A stretch of DNA of 64,000 bases from a virus. The DNA lies in the IMG/VR virus record IMGVR_UViG_3300027565_000001. One strand, 5' to 3'. The position numbers and the translations under genes are program-made. This document shows positions 2,567 to 49,480 of the stretch, one piece after another. The first letter of the stretch is position 1. Each line of letters opens with the position of its first letter. The notes beneath the pieces were generated by a model. The model worked only from the letters and a program-made list of their open reading frames with translations. It searched no databases and had not been told where the DNA came from.

Positions 2567-3539
2567 GGGCGAGGGCTGCGTCCTTCTCAAGCGCCCAGAA
2601 CTCCTGCAGTCCCAAACGATTACGTTCCCGCCATTTGAGCACCTCTCCCGCTTCTTCCTCGCCGGGTTTCATGTGCGCCTTGATGAAGGCCATGGCTTGG
2701 TCGTAGAACTTGCCTGCGGGCACGCGCTGCAAGGCTTCGCCGTCAAGCCAGTCGATCATGATGGCCTTGGCAGCACCGATCCGATCCAAACGCTCCTCGC
2801 GTTCCGCCTCGCTGATGATCTCGGTCGCGGTCAGATCGATGGTGTGGGCCTGGTCCAGCTCTCCTTCGGCGTAAGAACCCGAGGTTTCATTGGGCCAGCC
2901 CTTACGGATGGCGTCGGCCTCGGTGCATTTGGCCAGCATGGTCTCGGGCATGCTGCGCCAGTTCTTCTTGGTCGGATCGAGCTTGGATACGACTTCTCCA
3001 ACAGGAACGCGCTTCATCCGCGGCTTGCCAGCACGCTTGTGGCCTTCGGGCCAGACCTGGGGTGGATCGTAGGGCTCCCATTTGAACCCGTCCTCGCCGT
3101 CCTGAATGATCGGCGCCCGCTCATTCCACTTGAGCTTGGAGGTGATGGGGAACCATTCCCCGTGCGCGTGACGATAGACCGTGACCTCGCAGTCGAGAAT
3201 ACCCTTGGGGTTCGCCTCGCTGATCAGGGCATCATCGTAGGTGAAGCGCGGGGGCCTATCATCGGGGCGGTAGTTACCCGAACGCGCCGCTATCTTGCGA
3301 TAGAGCCCAATGCCAAGCACCGGAACAACGCGACGCTTCTCTTGGTCATGAGCGTCAAAAATAAAGAAGTAGATATCCTTAACAAAGGGGTTGGCCCCGT
3401 AAAGTTCGCAATACTCCACGGCGATGTCCAGCTCACTGGGGAGCAGATCTTTCCCGACCGTCTTCTTGAATAAGGCCAATCGGCGTGGATCTTGGCGAAC
3501 CAGCGCACCCGTCTTTCGCATGGGGATGATGTTGGGCAT
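2529..3539 (-). CDS. recT: RecT/Red-beta family single-strand annealing recombinase
   Basis: DIAVEYCELYGANPFVKDIYFFIF...VPVLGIGLYRKIAARSG and MLAKCTEADAIRKGWP blocks are typical of phage RecT. ATG at 3539 has GAGGA 5 nt upstream. Confidence 0.85.
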   Translation of the reverse strand: MPNIIPMRKTGALVRQDPRRLALFKKTVGKDLLPSELDIAVEYCELYGANPFVKDIYFFIFDAHDQEKRRVVPVLGIGLYRKIAARSGNYRPDDRPPRFTYDDALISEANPKGILDCEVTVYRHAHGEWFPITSKLKWNERAPIIQDGEDGFKWEPYDPPQVWPEGHKRAGKPRMKRVPVGEVVSKLDPTKKNWRSMPETMLAKCTEADAIRKGWPNETSGSYAEGELDQAHTIDLTATEIISEAEREERLDRIGAAKAIMIDWLDGEALQRVPAGKFYDQAMAFIKAHMKPGEEEAGEVLKWRERNRLGLQEFWALEKDAALALKKELEKIATAG

Positions 3540-14927: not shown

Positions 14928-15485
14928 GTGCACCCAGATAACCTCGATTACGGCCCAGCCCTTTCCTACCTAGTCCTCCTCCTGAGCTGGATAATATTCA
15001 TCTGGTCCTACTGGAAGCAGGAGAAGGAGCTGGCCGTACTGAGGGGCAAGTGGCTGGAGGTGCCAGGGTCCGAGGTAGAAATCACAGAGGAGAACGACAT
15101 GGCCAAATACACCTACGCCGATCTCGCCGATAAACCCTTCGTGCCACCAACGGCCATCGAACCAACGGAGGAGATCGAAAAGGGCCGCCGGATCGTCAAC
15201 GATCTAGCCGCACGCAATCCAGAACTCGCGGCGAAACTCAGGGCGGCCGCGATCAGAACGGTCGCCGCCAAGCGCGGCCCGATCACCAGCACCGACGTGT
15301 GGGTGTATTTGCGTGATAATGATCCGACCACGATGGAGGCAGCCAAGAAGGTTGCCAACGGTCGAATTATGACTTCGGCATTCGACGGCCCCGCGTGGGA
15401 GAAAACGGGGCGGTATCTCCCGCAGGGCTCACACGGTAGGCCAGTTAGTGAATGGCGATACCGGCATGCGCTGGAGGCCGCGTGA
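14928..15485 (+). CDS. membrane-anchored hypothetical protein (185 aa)
   Basis: GTG start with GAGGA upstream. N-terminal hydrophobic helix LSYLVLLLSWIIFIWSYW. Confidence 0.6.
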   Translation: MHPDNLDYGPALSYLVLLLSWIIFIWSYWKQEKELAVLRGKWLEVPGSEVEITEENDMAKYTYADLADKPFVPPTAIEPTEEIEKGRRIVNDLAARNPELAAKLRAAAIRTVAAKRGPITSTDVWVYLRDNDPTTMEAAKKVANGRIMTSAFDGPAWEKTGRYLPQGSHGRPVSEWRYRHALEAA

Positions 15486-17497
15486 TTGCCCGCACATTCC
15501 TCGATGGGCGCGTTGTCCTTCACTGCGGGGATTGCTTGAATGTGCTCGCAACGTTACCCGAGGCGTCTGTGGACAGTGTCGTTTGCGACCCGCCTTATCA
15601 TCTGACCAGCATCGTCAACCGCTACAGCAAAACGAGCATGGAGCGAGAAGGATCGAATGAGAAACGTGCCCGTGAGCGCTCAGATGCCATGGGCAGATTG
15701 GTCGGCGGTTTTATGGGCAAACTATGGGATGGCGGCGATATCGCGGCGCGCATTGAGACGTGGGAAGCCGTGCTGCGTGTGCTCAAGCCGGGCGGTCATC
15801 TGATCGCCTTCTCTGGCACGCGCACCTATCACCGCATGGTGTGCGCCATCGAGGATGCCGGATTTGAGATCCGTGATCAAATCGGTTGGTGCTTCGGCTC
15901 AGGCTTTCCCAAGAGCCATGACGTGAGTAAGGGGATCGATCGTCAGGCAGGAGCGCAGCGCGACAAGATTGCCATCGGCGCTCCCGTGAAACGCATGATC
16001 CCGGGCGCAGATCAGAACGCGGATGGCAGTTGGACCAAAGACAATGGGCGCGTTTACCAGCCGGGAAAAGAACTGCCGGCAACGGCCGAGGCCGAACAGT
16101 GGAATGGCTGGGGCACAGCTCTAAAGCCAGCGTGGGAACCTATCGTACTCGCGCGCAAGCCGCTGACGACCAACCCAGTTGCAGTGCGTGATATTGTGGA
16201 GTGCGAGCTGCGGGCTCGTGGCGTGGAGGGCGTTATCGCATGGACAAGCAGTGCAAAAAATGCGGCGAGGTCAAGCCGCCTGAACTCTTCAAACCGAACC
16301 CAAGCGCCCGAAACGGGGGAAACATCTGCAAGGCATGTCGGCGCATCAGAGACGGCATGCACCGACGAGCAAATCCCGCACTGTACCGGGCCAGGATCAA
16401 CAAATGGATCGCCGCCAACCGTGAGCGAGCGCGGGAACTGCGCCGCCGCTCAGACCGCAAGCTCAAGGCGGAAGTCTTCGCTGCCTATGGGTCAGTCTGC
16501 GCCTGCTGCGGAGAGAGAGAGCCCGCATTCCTCACCCTTGACCACATCGGCGGAGGTGGCACCAAGCACCGAAAGCAGTTCCATCAAAAGGTCTATGCTG
16601 ATCTGCGACGACGAGGGTTCCCAGAAGGGTTCCAAATCCTTTGCTGGAATTGCAACTGGGCTCACAGACTCACGGGCAGTTGCCCACATCAGTCGGAACA
16701 GCGACGGAACCTTCGAGTGGCCTGACGATCTCCCGATTCACGTCCCGGCGCGGTCTCTGACCGTCGCAGAGAACGTCCTACAGCACGGTACCGGGGCGAT
16801 CAATGTGGACGGATGCAGGGTGGAGACTTCCGAAAGTCTGAATGGCGGCGCTTACGCACAGAACGGTGCGCGAGTGGCTATGGCGGGCGATGAGCGCACC
16901 GGAGCAGCGCTGGGCATGTTCCAGCCAGGGAAGACCACCGAGAAAGAATTCGCGCAGCCCGTCGGTCGCTGGCCCGCCAACATCGTCCACGACGGCTCAG
17001 AGGAAGTGCTGGCGGCGTTCCCAGATACCCAATCTGGCGTGCTTGCAGCCGGCACCATTCGCTCGACCGACAACCAAATATACGGAAAGGATTTGCGACG
17101 CGCCGGAGACCCAGCGACGTTTCGCGACGCGGGCGGCGACAGCGGTTCGGCCGCCCGCTTCTTCTACACCGCCAAAGCCGACGCCGAGGATCGCCTTGGC
17201 TCCAAGCACCCGACCGTCAAGCCGCTAGATCTCATGCAGTGGCTCGTGCGGCTCGTGACCCCGCGCAAGGGCATCGTGCTTGATCCATTCGCTGGCACGG
17301 GCACCACGGGCGAGGCCGCGTGGCGCGAAGGCATGAACGCCATATTGATCGAGCGCGAGGAAGAATACCAGGCGGACATCGCAAGGCGCATGGACCTGGC
17401 GACCCAACCCGAAAAGCGCGTGGCGGTTGCCAAGTCCAAGAACAAGACCGAATGCGTATCGGACCTGCCGCTGTTTGCCGGCTGCAAGACCTCATAA
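15482..17497 (+). CDS. beta-class N6-adenine/N4-cytosine DNA methyltransferase carrying a 198-codon insertion
   Basis: CDPPYHL (motif IV) comes early and DPFAGTGTTGEAA (motif I) late, with HPTVKP and RWPANIVHDG blocks. GTG at 15482 has GGAGG 4 nt upstream and a GTGA overlap with the previous stop. Insertion at 16163-16761 (see findings). Confidence 0.85.
   Translation: MIARTFLDGRVVLHCGDCLNVLATLPEASVDSVVCDPPYHLTSIVNRYSKTSMEREGSNEKRARERSDAMGRLVGGFMGKLWDGGDIAARIETWEAVLRVLKPGGHLIAFSGTRTYHRMVCAIEDAGFEIRDQIGWCFGSGFPKSHDVSKGIDRQAGAQRDKIAIGAPVKRMIPGADQNADGSWTKDNGRVYQPGKELPATAEAEQWNGWGTALKPAWEPIVLARKPLTTNPVAVRDIVECELRARGVEGVIAWTSSAKNAARSSRLNSSNRTQAPETGETSARHVGASETACTDEQIPHCTGPGSTNGSPPTVSERGNCAAAQTASSRRKSSLPMGQSAPAAERESPHSSPLTTSAEVAPSTESSSIKRSMLICDDEGSQKGSKSFAGIATGLTDSRAVAHISRNSDGTFEWPDDLPIHVPARSLTVAENVLQHGTGAINVDGCRVETSESLNGGAYAQNGARVAMAGDERTGAALGMFQPGKTTEKEFAQPVGRWPANIVHDGSEEVLAAFPDTQSGVLAAGTIRSTDNQIYGKDLRRAGDPATFRDAGGDSGSAARFFYTAKADAEDRLGSKHPTVKPLDLMQWLVRLVTPRKGIVLDPFAGTGTTGEAAWREGMNAILIEREEEYQADIARRMDLATQPEKRVAVAKSKNKTECVSDLPLFAGCKTS
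16240..16725 (+). CDS. HNH endonuclease (161 aa) nested out of frame inside the methyltransferase gene
   Basis: CKKCG...CKAC, CACCGE, LTLDHIGGGG..H and LCWNCNWAH motifs. Own GGAGGG RBS 9 nt upstream of the ATG. Confidence 0.8.
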   Translation: MDKQCKKCGEVKPPELFKPNPSARNGGNICKACRRIRDGMHRRANPALYRARINKWIAANRERARELRRRSDRKLKAEVFAAYGSVCACCGEREPAFLTLDHIGGGGTKHRKQFHQKVYADLRRRGFPEGFQILCWNCNWAHRLTGSCPHQSEQRRNLRVA

Positions 17498-17504
17498 CTG
17501 AAAA

Positions 17505-17533
17505 CCGCCACGCCGCTAAATGCGGCGGCACCC
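17505..17533 (+). repeat. GC-hairpin repeat, copy B
   Basis: ccgccacgccgc-taaa-tgcggcggcaccc, 7 nt after the methyltransferase stop. Confidence 0.85.
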
Positions 17534-17558
17534 AAACCCTACCCACCCCGGCCACCCC

Positions 17559-17765
17559 ATGAGCAAGCGCCGCCCTACCAAGTGTTCCTCCTGCGGAGCC
17601 AAGCTAGGCGAGGCAAGGATGGTAGTCCACGATGCGGATCCCACCAAACCTTCTGGGGATTACTGCAACTCGGCATGCCTTTTCGCTGCACGGGAGGCGG
17701 CAAATCGCGCTAAAGTGCTAGCCGACATCGAAACGATCATGCCGGTTGAAGGGATGCCCCGCTAA
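17559..17765 (+). CDS. small zinc-ribbon-like protein (68 aa)
   Basis: MSKRRPTKCSSCGAKLG...YCNSAC. The upstream 13 codons of the track ORF are the translation of hairpin copy B. Confidence 0.55.
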   Translation: MSKRRPTKCSSCGAKLGEARMVVHDADPTKPSGDYCNSACLFAAREAANRAKVLADIETIMPVEGMPR

Positions 17766-18199
17766 TGCCGAACATAGCCAATGCTCCCGACCGCGACCCC
17801 AACATCCTCATCGTTCCCATGGATCGCGGCCCCTCCCACGTCACTGAAACGCGTACCGTCATCGAGAAACGCGCCCCCACCGACGACAGCGTGCGCCTGC
17901 TGCGTGAGATGGAGGCCAAGGCGGAGGCGCGTATCCTTGAAAGCGTGCGCGTCGCCGATACGGTCTTTGAGTGCGTGGTGCACAGCTACCGCGACGTAGT
18001 CAACGACAAGATGGTCTACCGCGCCGTGGTCAAGCTCAACGGCCGCACCGTGACCGCGGAGCACGCGGTGTGGACGATGGACGCCAAGGACTTGCGGGCA
18101 GCATGGGAAGCGCTACGGGACAAGCTAGCCACGGCCATAGCCTCGGAGGTGCTCAAGGGGGCGTTCGCGGCGACCATGAGGGCTAGGAACCTCGGATAA
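17765..18199 (+). CDS. hypothetical protein (144 aa)
   Basis: TAATG start/stop overlap with the upstream gene. Confidence 0.6.
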   Translation: MPNIANAPDRDPNILIVPMDRGPSHVTETRTVIEKRAPTDDSVRLLREMEAKAEARILESVRVADTVFECVVHSYRDVVNDKMVYRAVVKLNGRTVTAEHAVWTMDAKDLRAAWEALRDKLATAIASEVLKGAFAATMRARNLG

Positions 18200-18286: not shown

Positions 18287-19102
18287 ATGTCGGCGCTACA
18301 GAGGCGGCTGGACGAGAAGAAGGTTGGCTGGCTTTACGCAACTATGGATTGCGATCTGGGGACGTGCACGTATTGCGGGGGCATTGCGCAATGCATGGAT
18401 CATGTTCCTCCCCTGTCGCATGCCGCACGGATGTTGGACATTAGCAGAGATGAACTCATGAGCACGACACTTATGGTTGTGCCCAGTTGCTATGAGTGCA
18501 ATGGTCTGGCTGGTAGTTCCTATCAGGCGACGCTTTCGGAGCGTCGGGCGTACGTCAAGCGGCGTCTACGAGAGAAGTATCGCCAGCTGCTCTTGGTGCC
18601 CAAATGGTCAGAGGATGAGATTGCGGAACTTGGCTACCATCTGGCAACTGTAGTGAAGACGGCTGATTATAAATTCGAGTCAGTTCGCGAGCGTCTTGCC
18701 TTCAATCCTAATCGTGGAACGAGACCACGCCGCATCCACATCGTCATGCCAGCAAATCTCAGCATAACTCCTCAAGCGTTGGCGAAACGCAGGTGGGTGA
18801 CCGAACAGAAAGCAATAGACGCATACGTTGCTGCAAAGCTGGCGAAATCACTCCCCGACTATCGTGCAATTATAGCGAGGATGATTGCGGGAGGAAAAGT
18901 CCCTGACGTGCGGAACCAGCGCAGCTTGATCGCTTTTGCATCGTACGCAAGCCAGGCGCTGAAAGCGGTGCTTCACCCTGGCAAATATGATTGGGTGAAG
19001 TCAAATACAGTCCTTCCGAGGACAAACAGCTTAAACTGGCACAAGAAGAGGGATCGTGAGTATGAGGAGTTGATGCGAGACCGGAGAAGCGAAAAACCGT
19101 GA
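18287..19102 (+). CDS. HNH-like endonuclease (271 aa)
   Basis: CTYCGG...CMDHVPP...VVPSCYECN motif string. GC looks visibly lower than in the flanking genes. Confidence 0.7.
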   Translation: MSALQRRLDEKKVGWLYATMDCDLGTCTYCGGIAQCMDHVPPLSHAARMLDISRDELMSTTLMVVPSCYECNGLAGSSYQATLSERRAYVKRRLREKYRQLLLVPKWSEDEIAELGYHLATVVKTADYKFESVRERLAFNPNRGTRPRRIHIVMPANLSITPQALAKRRWVTEQKAIDAYVAAKLAKSLPDYRAIIARMIAGGKVPDVRNQRSLIAFASYASQALKAVLHPGKYDWVKSNTVLPRTNSLNWHKKRDREYEELMRDRRSEKP

Positions 19103-47206: not shown

Positions 47207-49480
47207 TTATCTCCGACCCGACAGCGCGAACCTGAACCGATTGCGTCCCATTCTAATGAAGGTATTGAGATCGCTCGCGGTCATGTTGATGCGGAACTGC
47301 CGCCCCCTGAAGCGCACGTCGACCTTGTTGGTGGTCGAGGTCACGGTGTAGGGGCCATAGGAGCGCGGGGTGTCGCCAGGGTTGTTGATCACGTCGAAGG
47401 TCACCTGCGCGGTCGCGGTCTGCGCGCCGTTGAACAGGCCCCACTTCATGTCTGGGAGCCACTGGTCGACGACGACGAAGTCCTCGCCATCGGAAATGAA
47501 GAACCACCCGGTCTGAAAACTCCAAACGAGAGGCTGGCCGTCCGCGTTCTGTCCATTCTCTTGCGAGTACAGGATGCCCGTCGGCGTCGCCATGATGGGA
47601 TTGCCGATCACGGACTGGTCGATGCCTATTGATCTCGGCATCGAGCCATAATCCCAAGACCCGTCGATGACGTTGACTTTGGCGTAGGTGTCGCACTGCC
47701 CGGTACCACCCGCCGTGGTTGGAAAAAACCACCAGATCTCATTGAAGGCAGTGACTGACTGCGACCAGCACTTGTCGAGGTTGGTGGTATCGATTTGCTG
47801 GAACACTGCGTCCCACACCGTGCAGGGGATGGTTATCGGGGCTCCACCGGCCAGCGCATGGAAGTTCTTGCGCCCCATCCAGTAGACGACGCCCGACATC
47901 TGCGCGATCGAATGGCGTGAGATCGTCCCGCAGTTGGCGCCGATCTTGGTCTGTGTCCAAATCTGCGGGAGGTTGACATACGTCGCCGACCAAAGATCCA
48001 GATCGGTCCAGAATAAAACCTGCTGCGGTGTGGCCATGCCGGCTTTGATCGCCGAGCCCGTAGGAATGCGCGACTGGAATGCTTGCGAGGTTGCATTGCT
48101 GGTGGGATTGACTACGTTCGTTTTCCAAAATGTATAATCGCTCAAATCGCTCGCCCGCCATGTCAATGGGTCCTGCGCCAACCCTATTGTTTTGGTGATC
48201 GTGCTCCCGTAGGCGATCAGGATTTGATACGGCGCCGCAACGAAGATCCCGCTGTTATAGAACGGCGCCCCTGAGATGATCTGCGAGTTCTGCACGCCGC
48301 TATTGGGCGTCCAGGTGTAAATGGCCCCATTCGCCGGACACGCCGTCAAGGTCGCCGCCCAATTGTCCAAGGTCCAGTCGGTCGCGGTTATGTTTGTCCC
48401 GGTCTGCGAACTACCGGCACCACCCACACCGCTGTAGGTCCCGCTGGAGTACGTGGAGAACGAGTATCCCGTACCCCCAGCCACCGGCCCAATGGTGATG
48501 TAGTAGACGAACTCCACATTGCCCGTGTTCATCGATGCCGTGGCGCCTGATGTCGCTTTGGCCGTCGCCGAGATGGTGAAGGTATCGGTATCGGTAATGG
48601 TAACGGCAGCATAGGTTCCCTGTATCGTCAGGCCACCAACGGTCGTGGCAATGGGAAAGACAATGCTGTTGCCGGCACTCAAGCCGTGGTCGGCGAACTT
48701 CACGGATACGGTGGCGCTGGCATTGGTGGTCGTGAACTGCGGTACTTGCGAGGGACTCGCCACCCCGCCAGATGTGTAGGCGCCATATCCCGTCGAATCG
48801 ATTCCGGTTAATGTAAAGTTACCCGCCCCCACCGCCGAGATCGCATAGACGTTGCCGTTGAGCTGCGTCATCCCCGACACGCCCGAGATATAAACGAGGT
48901 CGCCGTTGGCAAAATCGTTGGCGGCGGTGATTACACAAGGGTTGGCCTGCGTCGCCCCGGTTATGGTCGCGTTCTGCCGGGTATCGGCCGCATTCGACGC
49001 CGCGGTTATCTGGTAGGAGGTCGGCGATAATATGGTGGTGATCGAGTAGACTCCCGACAGTATTATCCCCCCCACCGCAACGGGCGTATTGAACGCAACC
49101 GAATCGAGGACGGTGACATTGGAGATATTGCCATCGACGATGGTCACCAGGGCCGAGGCCGATGTGGTCGCGAAGTTCGGGGTCACGTCCGAGGTAAACG
49201 TCTGGGGCGTGATGTCGGTGATGACGCCGCCGTTGATCACGTCCAAGGCGCTAGTCGTGCCGATCGCCAGCCAAGTTGATGCGTTGAGGTCGAGCCACGC
49301 CGCCAGCGATCTGGGCGTTCCGCCGAGTGCCAATGCAATGTATTTTGCCCAACCCCCAAGCTTCTCGAAGAAGCCCGCGCGAAACCGCCCAAGTTGCGAG
49401 GTCGCAAACCCGGCCTGCAGCGCCGTGCTTGTGGCTTCGGTGTTGACACCAGGTCGCAACGTGACGGACGCGAACGGCAT
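47207..49480 (-). CDS. large tail structural protein (757 aa)
   Basis: The N-terminus ...VTLRPGVNTEATSTALQAGFATSQLGRFRAGFFEKLGGW recalls tail-hub/tubular proteins of short-tailed phages. Tentative call. Confidence 0.75.
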   Translation of the reverse strand: MPFASVTLRPGVNTEATSTALQAGFATSQLGRFRAGFFEKLGGWAKYIALALGGTPRSLAAWLDLNASTWLAIGTTSALDVINGGVITDITPQTFTSDVTPNFATTSASALVTIVDGNISNVTVLDSVAFNTPVAVGGIILSGVYSITTILSPTSYQITAASNAADTRQNATITGATQANPCVITAANDFANGDLVYISGVSGMTQLNGNVYAISAVGAGNFTLTGIDSTGYGAYTSGGVASPSQVPQFTTTNASATVSVKFADHGLSAGNSIVFPIATTVGGLTIQGTYAAVTITDTDTFTISATAKATSGATASMNTGNVEFVYYITIGPVAGGTGYSFSTYSSGTYSGVGGAGSSQTGTNITATDWTLDNWAATLTACPANGAIYTWTPNSGVQNSQIISGAPFYNSGIFVAAPYQILIAYGSTITKTIGLAQDPLTWRASDLSDYTFWKTNVVNPTSNATSQAFQSRIPTGSAIKAGMATPQQVLFWTDLDLWSATYVNLPQIWTQTKIGANCGTISRHSIAQMSGVVYWMGRKNFHALAGGAPITIPCTVWDAVFQQIDTTNLDKCWSQSVTAFNEIWWFFPTTAGGTGQCDTYAKVNVIDGSWDYGSMPRSIGIDQSVIGNPIMATPTGILYSQENGQNADGQPLVWSFQTGWFFISDGEDFVVVDQWLPDMKWGLFNGAQTATAQVTFDVINNPGDTPRSYGPYTVTSTTNKVDVRFRGRQFRINMTASDLNTFIRMGRNRFRFALSGRR

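What the first reader, a model, noticed from the sequence alone, without database searches (positions are those of the whole stretch)
16163..16761. 594-nt in-frame insertion inside the DNA methyltransferase gene carries an out-of-frame HNH endonuclease gene (possible dual-coding homing cassette)
The methyltransferase ORF (15482-17497) has CDPPYHL early and DPFAGTGTTG late, which is the beta-class motif order. In the CcrM-like and phage enzymes I recall, ...ARKPL and TVAxNVLxHGTGAxNxDGCR are adjacent. Here ...ARKPL ends at 16165 and TVAENVLQHGTGAINVDGCRV starts at 16760. Between them lie about 198 codons of Ser/Thr/Ala-rich low-complexity sequence.

Read in another frame, the same DNA encodes a well-formed 161-aa HNH endonuclease (16240-16725). 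It has CKKCG..CKAC, CACCGE, LDHIGGGG..H and LCWNCNWAH motifs and its own GGAGGG RBS.

CTGAC is directly repeated at both junctions (16163-16167 and 16757-16761). Removing 594 nt, exactly 198 codons, restores ARKPL-TVAENVL.

The methyltransferase frame has no stop across the whole insert. Within the HNH ORF, every Leu or Val codon that precedes an A-initial codon ends in C (CTC AAG, CTC ACC, CTC ACG, GTC AAG), while CTG is used elsewhere. That choice is exactly what avoids TGA in the methyltransferase frame.

Two readings are possible. The cassette may be removed at the RNA level. Alternatively, the enzyme may be made with a roughly 200-aa disordered loop whose DNA is overprinted by a mobile endonuclease gene.
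Basis: partly seen in the sequence, partly recalled or inferred. Interest (0 to 1): 0.8.

Follow-up and report, generated by a model that had tools for sequence, protein, structure and literature searches.

The report
Hidden HNH gene inside phage methylase
A phage DNA methyltransferase gene carries a 594-base mobile insert that stays readable in the methylase frame while encoding a homing-type HNH endonuclease in another frame; this kind of element was first described in 2025, and the window holds a new lineage of it.

Summary
The beta-class methyltransferase ORF (15452/15482-17497) has a 594-nt, 198-codon stop-free insert (16166-16759) between ARKPL and TVAENVL. An SD-led 161-aa HNH ORF (16240-16725) lies inside it in another frame.

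For the window alone, the evidence that the frame is kept open is modest. P(open) is 0.20 by within-ORF synonymous permutation and 0.008 with extein codon usage.

The family-level evidence is decisive. Loci found through the HNH alone show the same architecture at GC 0.39-0.64. There are 11 non-redundant open loci, one closed (L163) and one frameshifted (L166); the joint P is about 1e-35. Free-standing relatives carry 3-5 stops per 100 codons in that frame.

No intron model matches, the RNA is not unusually stable, and intein residues are absent. The cassette is 94% identical between alleles whose exteins are 79% identical, and its distribution is patchy, which fits homing.

AlphaFold2 models the insert's two ends as folded and its middle 110 residues as disordered.

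The kind is already published: the "ShiLan domain" hidden HNH (Arsenault, Gosselin and Gogarten 2025). It sits in the same methylase family, 11-12 codons upstream, with an HNH that showed no detectable similarity. The window's element is a new member of a known kind.

The parts
15452..17497 (+). Beta-class N6-adenine/N4-cytosine DNA methyltransferase gene (681 aa from ATG 15452; 671 aa from 15482 as in database protein P0001), read through the insert
   Evidence: ORF; Pfam PF01555 E=6.6e-24; phrog_67 E=1.5e-62; PDB profile hits to CcrM, DpnA and RsrI; Foldseek hits to CcrM and M.BceJIV
15452..16165 (+). N-terminal host part ('extein'), ending ...EPIVLARKPL and containing DPPY
   Evidence: Alignment with uninterrupted homologues
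16166..16759 (+). 594-nt cassette, 198 stop-free codons in the methylase frame (boundaries +/- 2-3 codons)
16163..16167 (+). CTGAC, 5' copy of the junction direct repeat
   Evidence: the repeat is not conserved in all relatives
16166..16239 (+). 5' adaptor, coding only in the methylase frame (TTNPVAVRDIVECELRARGVEGVIAW). It is modelled as a helix with pLDDT 83-96. Its conserved G-E-I-x-W motif is the footprint of the HNH Shine-Dalgarno sequence and start codon.
   Evidence: 4 synonymous versus 1 non-synonymous recent changes in L003/L161
16225..16230 (+). GGAGGG Shine-Dalgarno-like site, 9 nt upstream of the HNH ATG
   Evidence: a GGAG-like motif 7-9 nt upstream of the NTG start in 11 of 13 loci (15 nt in L008, none evident in L165)
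16240..16725 (+). HNH (His-Me finger) endonuclease ORF of 161 aa, offset by one base from the methylase frame. It has CxxC...CxxC, CxCCGE, LDHIGGGGxxHR, LCWNCNWAH and CPH motifs.
16277..16609 (+). Overprinted linker: methylase-frame residues 276-386, Ser/Thr/Ala-rich, modelled as disordered (pLDDT ~30)
   Evidence: depleted in hydrophobic residues compared with the same frame of free-standing relatives; 1 synonymous versus 18 non-synonymous in the methylase frame in the L003/L161 comparison
16619..16759 (+). 3' module: methylase-frame residues 390-436 (FAGIATGL...DGTFEWPDDLPIHVPARSL), modelled as beta strands with pLDDT 83-95. It overlaps the HNH C-terminus up to 16725 and codes only in the methylase frame from 16726.
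16757..16761 (+). CTGAC, 3' copy of the junction repeat. The preceding VPARSL mimics the upstream VLARKPL.
16760..17497 (+). C-terminal host part, beginning TVAENVLQHGTGAINVDGCR and containing DPFAGTGTTG

Best explanation
The insert is a mobile homing-endonuclease cassette that is not spliced out of either the RNA or the protein. It is tolerated because it is translated through.

**Inferred steps**
- The methylase mRNA is read in the methylase frame across all 198 insert codons. This gives a 671/681-aa enzyme in which the insert leaves the fold between the strand ...EPIVLARKPL and the helix TVAENVLQ.
- The insert's two ends form a small folded module, and its middle ~110 residues form a hydrophilic disordered tether.
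- On the same mRNA, ribosomes start independently at a conserved Shine-Dalgarno/ATG pair (16225-16230 and 16240). They make a 161-aa HNH endonuclease in the overlapping frame.
- The endonuclease presumably cuts insert-free methylase alleles near the conserved ARKPL/TVA site. Repair from the invaded allele then copies the cassette in.

**Shown here**
- The architecture.
- HNH homology.
- Conservation of the open frame.
- Conservation of the start signals.
- The mosaic and patchy distribution.
- Frame-specific selection.

No experiment supports the inferred steps, and methylase activity of the insert-bearing enzyme is also untested.
For: 1. **Same architecture in HNH-ascertained loci.** L001-5, L007, L008, L080, L081, L160, L161 and L165 all show N-methylase, then HNH offset by one base, then C-methylase in the N frame. 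Each has 0 stops in the methylase frame across the HNH and 1-16 in the third frame, at GC 0.39-0.64.
2. **Free-standing control.** Free-standing relatives (n=150) have 3.1-5.3 stops per 100 codons in that same frame at GC<0.6. Only 4 of the 129 with GC<0.6 have none.
3. **Exact probability of an open frame.** This takes the HNH protein and the extein codon usage as given. It is 0.0077 for the window and 1e-7 to 0.1 for the others, with a summed log10 of -35.4 over 11 loci. The conservative within-ORF permutation gives a product of 2e-9.
4. **More read-through homologues.** Thirteen further homologues (excluding P0001, the window's own protein) among the top 120 methylase hits carry a 193-198-aa insert at the same site. 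No intermediate sizes occur.
5. **Conserved start signals.** A GGAG-like motif lies 7-9 nt before an NTG start that overlaps a conserved Trp codon, in 11 of 13 loci.
6. **Frame-specific selection (L003 vs L161).** In the overlap there are 13 synonymous and 6 non-synonymous changes in the HNH frame, against 1 and 18 in the methylase frame. In the adaptors there are 9 synonymous and 3 non-synonymous changes in the methylase frame.
7. **Linker composition.** The linker has 11 points fewer hydrophobic residues than the same frame of free-standing relatives at equal GC (p=3e-7).
8. **AF2 model.** pLDDT is 83-96 for residues 239-275 and 390-436 and about 30 for 276-386. The core matches CcrM and M.BceJIV.
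9. **Mobility.** L003 vs L161 is 94.2% identical over the cassette and 79% over both exteins. L003 vs L007 is 98.9% over the cassette and 81.8% over the C-extein. Nine of 13 insert-bearing methylases have an insert-free nearest neighbour by extein identity; for the window this is 73% against 62%.
10. **No intron signal**.
11. **Published precedent.** The same design occurs in the same methylase family: PMC11855218.
Against: - No transcript, protein or activity data exist for this or any related element. The 2025 paper is also purely computational.
- L163 carries the same cassette at the same site with about 10 stops in the methylase frame. Read-through is therefore not obligatory for persistence, or that copy is dead or split.
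- L166 has frameshifts.
- The window alone is not significant under the most conservative null (P=0.20).
- The embedded loci form one clade of the HNH family, so the composition tests are not phylogenetically independent.
- Patchiness was judged by pairwise identity, not by a tree test.
- The AF2 confidence for the insert rests on only 13 insert-bearing rows.
Confidence: 0.8

Rival explanations
1. The 594 nt are removed from the mRNA, by a self-splicing group I/II or unknown intron carrying an HNH ORF. The open methylase frame would then be incidental.
For: - HNH genes are common in phage group I introns (established knowledge).
- L163 keeps intact-looking exteins although the methylase frame is closed across the insert.
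- A short junction repeat is present.
Against: - No Rfam match at E<=10 in 15000-18000, and none at E<=1 in 11 related loci including L163.
- The insert RNA is less stable than shuffles, z=+1.48.
- Only 108 nt lie outside the ORF.
- With a 594-nt excision, a U-ending 5' exon gives an intron ending in U, and an intron ending in G requires a G-ending exon. There is no GUGYG...AY.
- An intron gives no reason for codon choice to hold the host frame open (summed log10 P=-35.4 over 11 loci), nor for purifying selection on the adaptors in the host frame.
Confidence: 0.05
2. The insert is a non-canonical intein that is translated and then spliced out of the protein, with its homing endonuclease encoded out of frame. 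This has been reported for some actinophage inteins and for a cyanobacterial dnaX intein.
For: [quoted passage not shown]
- The window's HNH also hits endonuclease VII PHROGs.
- The insert ends fold, and the +1 residue is usually Thr.
Against: - The first insert residue is T, G, M, S, V, I, K or A across relatives.
- The last residues are SL, PL, AP, SN and similar, never His-Asn.
- The +1 residue is Asn in L008, L165, P0043 and P0048.
- The folded parts total about 85 aa, too few for a HINT domain.
- Pfam finds nothing in the host-frame insert.
Confidence: 0.03
3. The methylase is inactivated or functionally split by the insertion. The long ORF would then be a by-product, for example of recent insertion or of composition. 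Alternatively, the N and C halves are what matter, as in 'genes in pieces' created by free-standing homing endonuclease genes.
For: - L163 looks like a split gene, with a possible ATG restart (MEYSVEW...) before the C half.
- Mycobacteriophage methylases of this family are often annotated in pieces.
- Phage orphan methylases can be dispensable (PMC11855218).
Against: - The open frame is held in 11 non-redundant loci down to 39% GC.
- Exteins keep all catalytic motifs.
- The adaptors are under purifying selection in the methylase frame.
- The linker composition is biased toward solubility.

None of these is expected for a dead gene.
Confidence: 0.07
4. Ribosomes bypass the insert, hopping from the CUG at 16163-16165 to the CUG at 16757-16759 as in T4 gene 60. 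A variant is that ribosomes frameshift from the methylase frame into the HNH frame to make a fusion protein.
For: - Identical Leu codons (CTG within CTGAC) sit at both junctions.
- T4 gene 60's bypass element travels with the MobA HNH gene (established knowledge).
- The HNH frame is open for 48 nt upstream of its ATG.
Against: - The gap is 594 nt, against 50 nt in gene 60.
- No stop codon follows the putative take-off codon.
- The junction codons do not match in L001 (L vs P) or L003/L007/L161 (M vs N).
- Bypass would remove the need for an open frame.
- A conserved SD plus start codon argues for independent initiation of the HNH.
Confidence: 0.02

Closest known systems
ShiLan domain / hidden out-of-frame HNH in mycobacteriophage DNA methylase (Arsenault, Gosselin & Gogarten 2025, Genes 16:178, PMC11855218; Gosselin et al. 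2023, PMC9957025)
   Same: - Same host gene family. The window methylase is 42-46% identical to PopTart, Bipolar and Mantra methylases.
- Same design: a ~200-aa stop-free in-frame insertion, an HNH ORF with zinc fingers in another frame, no intron or intein signature, and a disjunct distribution.
- AlphaFold models both as a loop held away from the enzyme.
- Both carry a diverged copy of the upstream junction peptide at one end.
   Different: - The HNH proteins show no detectable similarity. BLASTP of the window HNH against the Bipolar and Mantra hidden HNHs gives E=1, and no mycobacteriophage is hit by tblastn at E<=1e-3. The ShiLan type is Pfam HNH_3; the window type has no Pfam hit.
- The insertion site is 11-12 codons further downstream. 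The ShiLan insert precedes (F/W)EPIVxARKPL and the window's follows it. Both occur in tandem in one Kribbella gene, L080.
- The window type has a clear SD and mostly ATG starts. The paper reports no RBS and proposes leaderless GTG initiation.
- The window type occurs in uncultivated phages and prophages at GC 0.39-0.64, not in cultured actinophages.
Pacc40 gp60 hidden HNH (same 2025 paper)
   Same: A 160-aa out-of-frame HNH-like ORF inside an in-frame insertion of a phage methylase, similar in size to the window's 161-aa ORF.
   Different: According to the paper it lies in a different methylase family (helicase-methylase fusion) and at a different site. No Mycobacterium phage record matched the window HNH at E<=1e-3. 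The two sequences were not compared directly.
Inteins with out-of-frame homing endonucleases (bioRxiv 10.1101/2025.01.02.630785; 10.64898/2026.09.14.751524)
   Same: The HEG is overprinted on host-frame coding sequence, and some of these HEGs are endonuclease VII-like, as are some PHROG hits of the window ORF.
   Different: In those elements the host-frame product is an intein that splices. Here the intein-defining residues are absent.
Free-standing homing endonuclease genes that split host genes (T4 MobA/gene 60, Aeh1 MobE/nrdA 'genes in pieces'; established knowledge)
   Same: An HNH-family HEG inserted at a conserved site of a phage DNA-metabolism gene without an intron or intein. L163 may be of this type.
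   Different: Those insertions interrupt the host reading frame. Here the frame is kept open, and the insert is presumably part of the protein.
Rickettsia palindromic elements (RPEs), selfish DNA inserted in frame into protein genes and translated (Ogata et al. 2000; from memory)
   Same: A mobile insertion tolerated by being translated as an extra surface segment.
   Different: RPEs are ~100-150 bp and non-coding in other frames, with no endonuclease. Recalled from memory only, not tested here.

Membership tests
Out-of-frame HNH insertion elements in phage DNA methylases (kind defined by PMC11855218) | In-frame insertion in a PF01555 methylase with no stop codon in the host frame | tested here: met
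   198 stop-free codons at 16166-16759. The frame is also open in 11 non-redundant relatives.
Out-of-frame HNH insertion elements in phage DNA methylases (kind defined by PMC11855218) | An alternative-frame ORF within the insert encodes an HNH endonuclease with zinc-finger motifs | tested here: met
   phrog_2255 HNH endonuclease at E=1.1e-18. CxxC pairs and the DH...N...CPH motifs are invariant across 20 homologues.
Out-of-frame HNH insertion elements in phage DNA methylases (kind defined by PMC11855218) | No detectable self-splicing intron or intein features | tested here: met
   Rfam searches negative. Fold z-score +1.48. No conserved C/S/T at residue 1 and no terminal HN.
Out-of-frame HNH insertion elements in phage DNA methylases (kind defined by PMC11855218) | Disjunct distribution, with the element more conserved than the host gene (homing signature) | tested here: met
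   Cassette 94-99% identical against 79-82% for exteins. Nine of 13 insert-bearing methylases have an insert-free nearest neighbour. No formal tree test was run.
ShiLan domain element specifically | HNH homologous to the ShiLan/Bipolar hidden HNH (HNH_3 type, 195 aa) | tested here: not met
   BLASTP gives E=1 against the Bipolar and Mantra hidden ORFs. No mycobacteriophage hit by tblastn.
ShiLan domain element specifically | Insertion between ALKPx and (F/W)EPIVxARKPL, starting with a duplicated copy of that peptide | tested here: not met
   The window insert follows ARKPL. L080 has both elements, separated by FEPIVVGRKPL.
Group I intron carrying a homing endonuclease ORF | Conserved catalytic core detectable by covariance models; U at the end of the 5' exon and G at the end of the intron | tested here: not met
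   No Intron_gpI or any other hit at E<=10 or at E<=1 in 11 loci. No 594-nt excision satisfies both boundary rules. Very divergent introns cannot be excluded by computation alone.
Intein (HINT domain, protein splicing) | N-terminal Cys/Ser/Thr, C-terminal His-Asn (or Gln/Asp), +1 Cys/Ser/Thr, and HINT blocks A, B, F, G | tested here: not met
   The first residue varies (T/G/M/S/V/I/K/A). The last residues are L, P or N without a preceding His. No Pfam hit.
HNH / His-Me finger nuclease superfamily | Beta-beta-alpha-metal motif with a catalytic His and Asn/His ligands | tested here: inconclusive
   PHROG HNH and endonuclease VII families match, and the D101-H102, N137 and H150 columns are invariant. 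However, Pfam gives no hit, and the PDB profile search gives only E=0.07-0.2 (Hpy99I and an HNH domain protein). The HNH ORF was not modelled structurally.
Programmed translational bypass (T4 gene 60 type) | Matched take-off and landing codons, a stop codon after take-off, and a short (~50 nt) gap | tested here: not met
   CTG matches CTG in the window. But no stop follows, the gap is 594 nt, and the junction codons do not match in L001 or L003.

The most novel reading that the evidence does not exclude
This is an independently evolved second lineage of 'translate-through' homing cassette. It uses an HNH family that showed no detectable similarity to the ShiLan HNH, 11-12 codons from the ShiLan site. 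Its host-frame product would be an evolved adaptor: a folded clasp formed by the two ends plus a disordered tether kept free of stops and poor in hydrophobic residues. That adaptor would do the job of an intein's splicing domain without any splicing. If so, translate-through is a general third way for homing endonuclease genes to live inside essential-fold genes, besides introns and inteins. It would be widespread well beyond actinophages and systematically missed by annotation.
Probability: 0.5. Interest if true: 0.6.

Novelty: new member of a known kind. Interest (0 to 1): 0.5.

Why it matters
- **Annotation.** Gene callers report only one of the two overlapping genes. In the 5.8-billion-protein collection these loci appear either as a 620-707-aa 'methylase' or as a 150-170-aa hypothetical protein.
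- **A cleaner test of dual coding.** The published ShiLan case rests on ten closely related mycobacteriophages. This family spans GC 0.39-0.64 and 40-60% protein identity. That allows a quantitative test that the host frame is actively kept open (joint P about 1e-35). It also allows a dissection of which frame is constrained where.
- **A mechanistic suggestion.** The HNH has a canonical Shine-Dalgarno sequence and start codon written into a conserved G-E-I-x-W peptide of the host frame. This differs from the leaderless-initiation idea proposed for ShiLan.
- **A recurrent target.** One Kribbella gene holds the ShiLan-type and window-type cassettes side by side, and a PVC-group gene holds a second hidden HNH-like ORF (double zinc ribbon; HNH motif seen by eye only) at another conserved motif. 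This methylase fold appears to be repeatedly invaded by such elements.
- **Practical use.** The linker shows where a beta-class methylase tolerates a 200-aa insertion.

Tried and rejected
- **Rfam.** Permissive thresholds on the window and on 11 related loci found nothing relevant. The only hit was a chance snoRNA match at E=0.76.
- **RNA folding.** Folding the insert gave z=+1.48, so it is not a structured RNA.
- **Pfam.** Both frames of the insert gave nothing. The HNH assignment rests on PHROGs and on conserved motifs.
- **PDB sequence search.** The profile search with the HNH family gave only marginal hits.
- **Within-ORF synonymous permutation.** This null turned out to be over-conservative, because the ORF's own codon usage is already shaped. 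It gave P=0.20 for the window. It was replaced by an exact calculation with extein codon usage. A Monte Carlo version timed out after four loci, but its values agreed with the exact ones.
- **Other possible dual-coding hosts.** A few free-standing HNH relatives have an open +1 frame (L040, L042, L053, L108, L125). None of these frames has a Pfam domain, so they were treated as chance or unknown.
- **Extein versus HNH identity.** The correlation across pairs is driven by the L003/L007/L161 trio (Pearson 0.76, Spearman 0.19). It was not used as evidence either way.
- **Intein, bypass and frameshift-fusion readings.** Considered and rejected on junction residues and on the conserved SD/start.
Full report
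**1. The observation**

The window has a + strand ORF at 15452-17497 (681 aa). The database protein P0001 starts at 15482, has 671 aa and is 100% identical. The ORF contains CDPPYHL near the N-terminus and DPFAGTGTTG near the C-terminus. This is the beta-class motif order.
- It matches Pfam PF01555 (E=6.6e-24) and phrog_67 (E=1.5e-62).
- A family profile hits CcrM, DpnA and RsrI.

ARKPL ends at 16165 and TVAENVL begins at 16760, with 198 stop-free codons between them. A 161-aa ORF at 16240-16725 lies in the frame offset by one base. GGAGGG at 16225-16230 lies 9 nt upstream of its ATG. CTGAC flanks both junctions.

The ORF matches PHROG HNH endonuclease families (phrog_2255, E=1.1e-18) and endonuclease VII-like families. 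It has 55 homologues in the protein collection. All invariant Cys, His, Asp and Asn columns of a 20-sequence alignment are present in the window copy. The host-frame translation of the insert matches no family.

**2. Is the open frame more than chance?**

For the window alone the answer depends on the null.
- Permuting synonymous codons within the HNH ORF leaves the methylase frame open in 20% of trials. That null inherits the ORF's own codon usage, which has already been shaped.
- An exact calculation fixes the HNH protein and draws codons from the usage of the same gene's flanking parts. It gives P=0.0077.

The decisive evidence is comparative. Loci were fetched using the HNH protein only, so the search was blind to the state of the methylase frame.
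- The close HNH relatives L001-5, L007, L008, L080, L081, L160, L161 and L165 all lie inside a homologous methylase at the same site with the same frame offset.
- Each has zero stops in the methylase frame across the HNH and 1-16 stops in the third frame, at GC from 0.39 to 0.64.
- The same relative frame of 150 free-standing relatives carries 3.1-5.3 stops per 100 codons at GC<0.6. Only 4 of the 129 with GC<0.6 have none.
- The exact probabilities for 11 non-redundant loci sum to log10 P = -35.4.
- Thirteen further read-through methylases with a 193-198-aa insert at this site are among the top 120 protein hits (a 14th such hit, P0001, is the window's own protein). Eighty-four hits have the uninterrupted spacing, and there are no intermediate sizes.

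There are exceptions. L163 has the cassette with about 10 stops in the host frame, and L166 has frameshifts.

**3. What the two frames encode**

The HNH start is conserved. An NTG codon overlaps a conserved Trp codon of the host frame, and a GGAG-like motif lies 7-9 nt upstream in 11 of 13 loci. This explains the conserved host-frame peptide G-E-I-x-W.

AlphaFold2 was run with an 82-row alignment.
- The methylase core and the insert's first ~37 and last ~47 residues have pLDDT 83-96. These ends form a helix at 245-255 and strands at 395-401 and 410-415.
- Residues 276-386 have pLDDT of about 30.
- The model matches CcrM and M.BceJIV.

The linker has 11 percentage points fewer hydrophobic residues and 6 points more Ser/Thr/Ala/Pro/Gly than the same frame of free-standing relatives at equal GC (p=3e-7 and 2e-5). 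HNH third positions, which are host-frame second positions, are depleted in T and G.

The recent pair L003/L161 shows frame-specific selection, although the counts are small.

| Region | Frame | Synonymous | Non-synonymous |
|---|---|---|---|
| Overlap | HNH | 13 | 6 |
| Overlap | Methylase | 1 | 18 |
| Two single-coding adaptors | Methylase | 9 | 3 |

The HNH is therefore the constrained gene in the overlap. There the host frame is constrained only to stay open and hydrophilic. The adaptor ends are real host-frame protein.

**4. Mobility**

- L003 vs L161: the cassette plus 70-90 nt of flanks is 94.2% identical, and both exteins are 79% identical.
- L003 vs L007: 98.9% over the cassette and 81.8% over the C-extein, but 96% over the N-extein.
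- By extein-only identity, 9 of 13 insert-bearing methylases have an insert-free nearest neighbour. The window is 73% identical to insert-free P0022 and 62% to the best insert-bearing relative.

This fits homing with co-conversion of flanks. No formal tree test was run.

**5. Rival mechanisms**

*RNA splicing.*
- No Rfam match appears in the window (E<=10) or in 11 loci (E<=1).
- The fold z-score is +1.48.
- Only 108 nt lie outside the ORF.
- The boundary bases fit neither group I nor group II rules.

*Protein splicing.* The first and last insert residues vary and lack the intein nucleophile and the His-Asn pair.

*Bypass.* The matching CTG codons are not conserved in L001 or L003, no stop follows the take-off codon, and the gap is 594 nt.

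*Dead or split gene.* This is contradicted by the maintained frame, the intact motifs and the adaptor selection, though L163 may be such a case.

**6. Comparison with what is known**

A literature search found PMC11855218 (Arsenault, Gosselin and Gogarten 2025) and its precursor PMC9957025.
- The 'ShiLan domain' is a 202-aa stop-free insertion in a mycobacteriophage methylase. It hides a 195-aa HNH in another frame, has no intron or intein features and has a disjunct distribution.
- A second case, Pacc40 gp60, and out-of-frame HEGs inside inteins are also reported.

The window's methylase belongs to that same family, at 42-46% identity to PopTart, Bipolar and Mantra. The element itself is different.
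- Its HNH is not detectably similar to the Bipolar or Mantra hidden HNH (E=1).
- No mycobacteriophage is hit by tblastn.
- Its site is 11-12 codons downstream. In Bipolar the ShiLan insert precedes FEPIVVARKPL.
- In a Kribbella qitaiheensis gene (L080) a ShiLan-type cassette (Pfam HNH_3) and the window-type cassette sit in tandem, separated by FEPIVVGRKPL.

The finding is therefore a new member of a known kind.

**7. Context and verdict**

The window (GC 0.60) carries virion structural genes. It is a phage or prophage of an uncultivated lineage.

The specialist surprise is reduced by the 2025 publication. The family still provides much stronger statistical evidence for selection on dual coding, a canonical internal start, and evidence that several non-homologous HNH cassettes converge on the same methylase loop. 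Interest is 0.5.

Noticed in passing
L080:1526-4147 (Kribbella qitaiheensis NZ_JBHSKE010000077.1): One 873-aa open methylase frame holds two out-of-frame HNH cassettes in tandem. The first is ShiLan-type (hidden ORF about 2330-2900, Pfam HNH_3 at E=9e-10). The second is window-type (3001-3483). They are separated only by FEPIVVGRKPL.
   Followed up: partly
L081:3889-4514 (PVC group MAG PXAS01000078.1); probably also L161: A second ~620-nt in-frame, stop-free insertion lies between the conserved SAARFF and HPTVKP motifs of the same methylase. It hides another out-of-frame zinc-ribbon, HNH-like ORF (MEKHTCPNCG...EHRHHPDY...CHRKLH). The only Pfam hit is a double zinc ribbon below the cut-off.
   Followed up: partly
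L160:3790-4440: A third HNH-like ORF (…ESHHKRPF…CQEHHYKEH) follows the RWPANLI motif of the methylase. Here the methylase frame is closed and the C-terminal part resumes in another frame. No intron model matched.
   Followed up: partly
L163:2918-3571 (Ga0207997_1007050): This is the same cassette at the same site, but with about 10 stops in the methylase frame. Its HNH belongs to the subclade of the free-standing copies L162/L164. Both adaptors are retained, and an ATG (MEYSVEW...) could restart the C half. It may be a split gene or an ancestral or decayed state.
   Followed up: partly
P0042, P0047, P0072 (proteins only): These three methylase homologues carry a different ~200-aa insert at the ShiLan site, flanked by a duplicated PIVLARKPL-like segment. 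Their DNA was not fetched, so any hidden ORF is unknown.
   Followed up: no
L242 (Mycobacterium phage Sonah PP358747.1 36119-37703) and the similar Jebeks, Shipwreck and Malithi records: These methylases are annotated as methylase | hypothetical | methylase. The last ~60 residues resume in a different frame after about 270 nt. The cause (frameshift, small insertion or annotation artefact) was not examined.
   Followed up: no
L040, L042, L053, L125 (free-standing HNH relatives): These loci have zero stops in the +1 frame across the HNH at GC 0.46-0.56, where 3 per 100 codons are typical. The open frames have no Pfam domain. They could be chance or further overlapping genes.
   Followed up: partly
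window 18287-19102 (+): A 271-aa Cys-rich ORF (CTYCGG...CMDH...CYECNG) lies about 800 nt downstream of the methylase. It matches only phrog_36777 (unknown function, E=4e-10) and could be another nuclease-like or zinc-binding gene.
   Followed up: no
window 33000-63000 (- strand): This is a block of long minus-strand ORFs. It includes a virion structural protein (47207-49480, phrog_3287 at E=8.5e-49) and a 1206-aa protein whose N-terminal domain is shared with minor head, endolysin and DarB-like families. Several ORFs of 480-987 aa have no PHROG match.
   Followed up: partly
P0089 (protein only): A single homologue has a short 24-aa insertion at the ARKPL/TVA site (AVPQEKPEGE...ADQADKPARMRSA). 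It was the only intermediate length among the 120 homologues. It could be a remnant of a cassette or an unrelated loop expansion.
   Followed up: no
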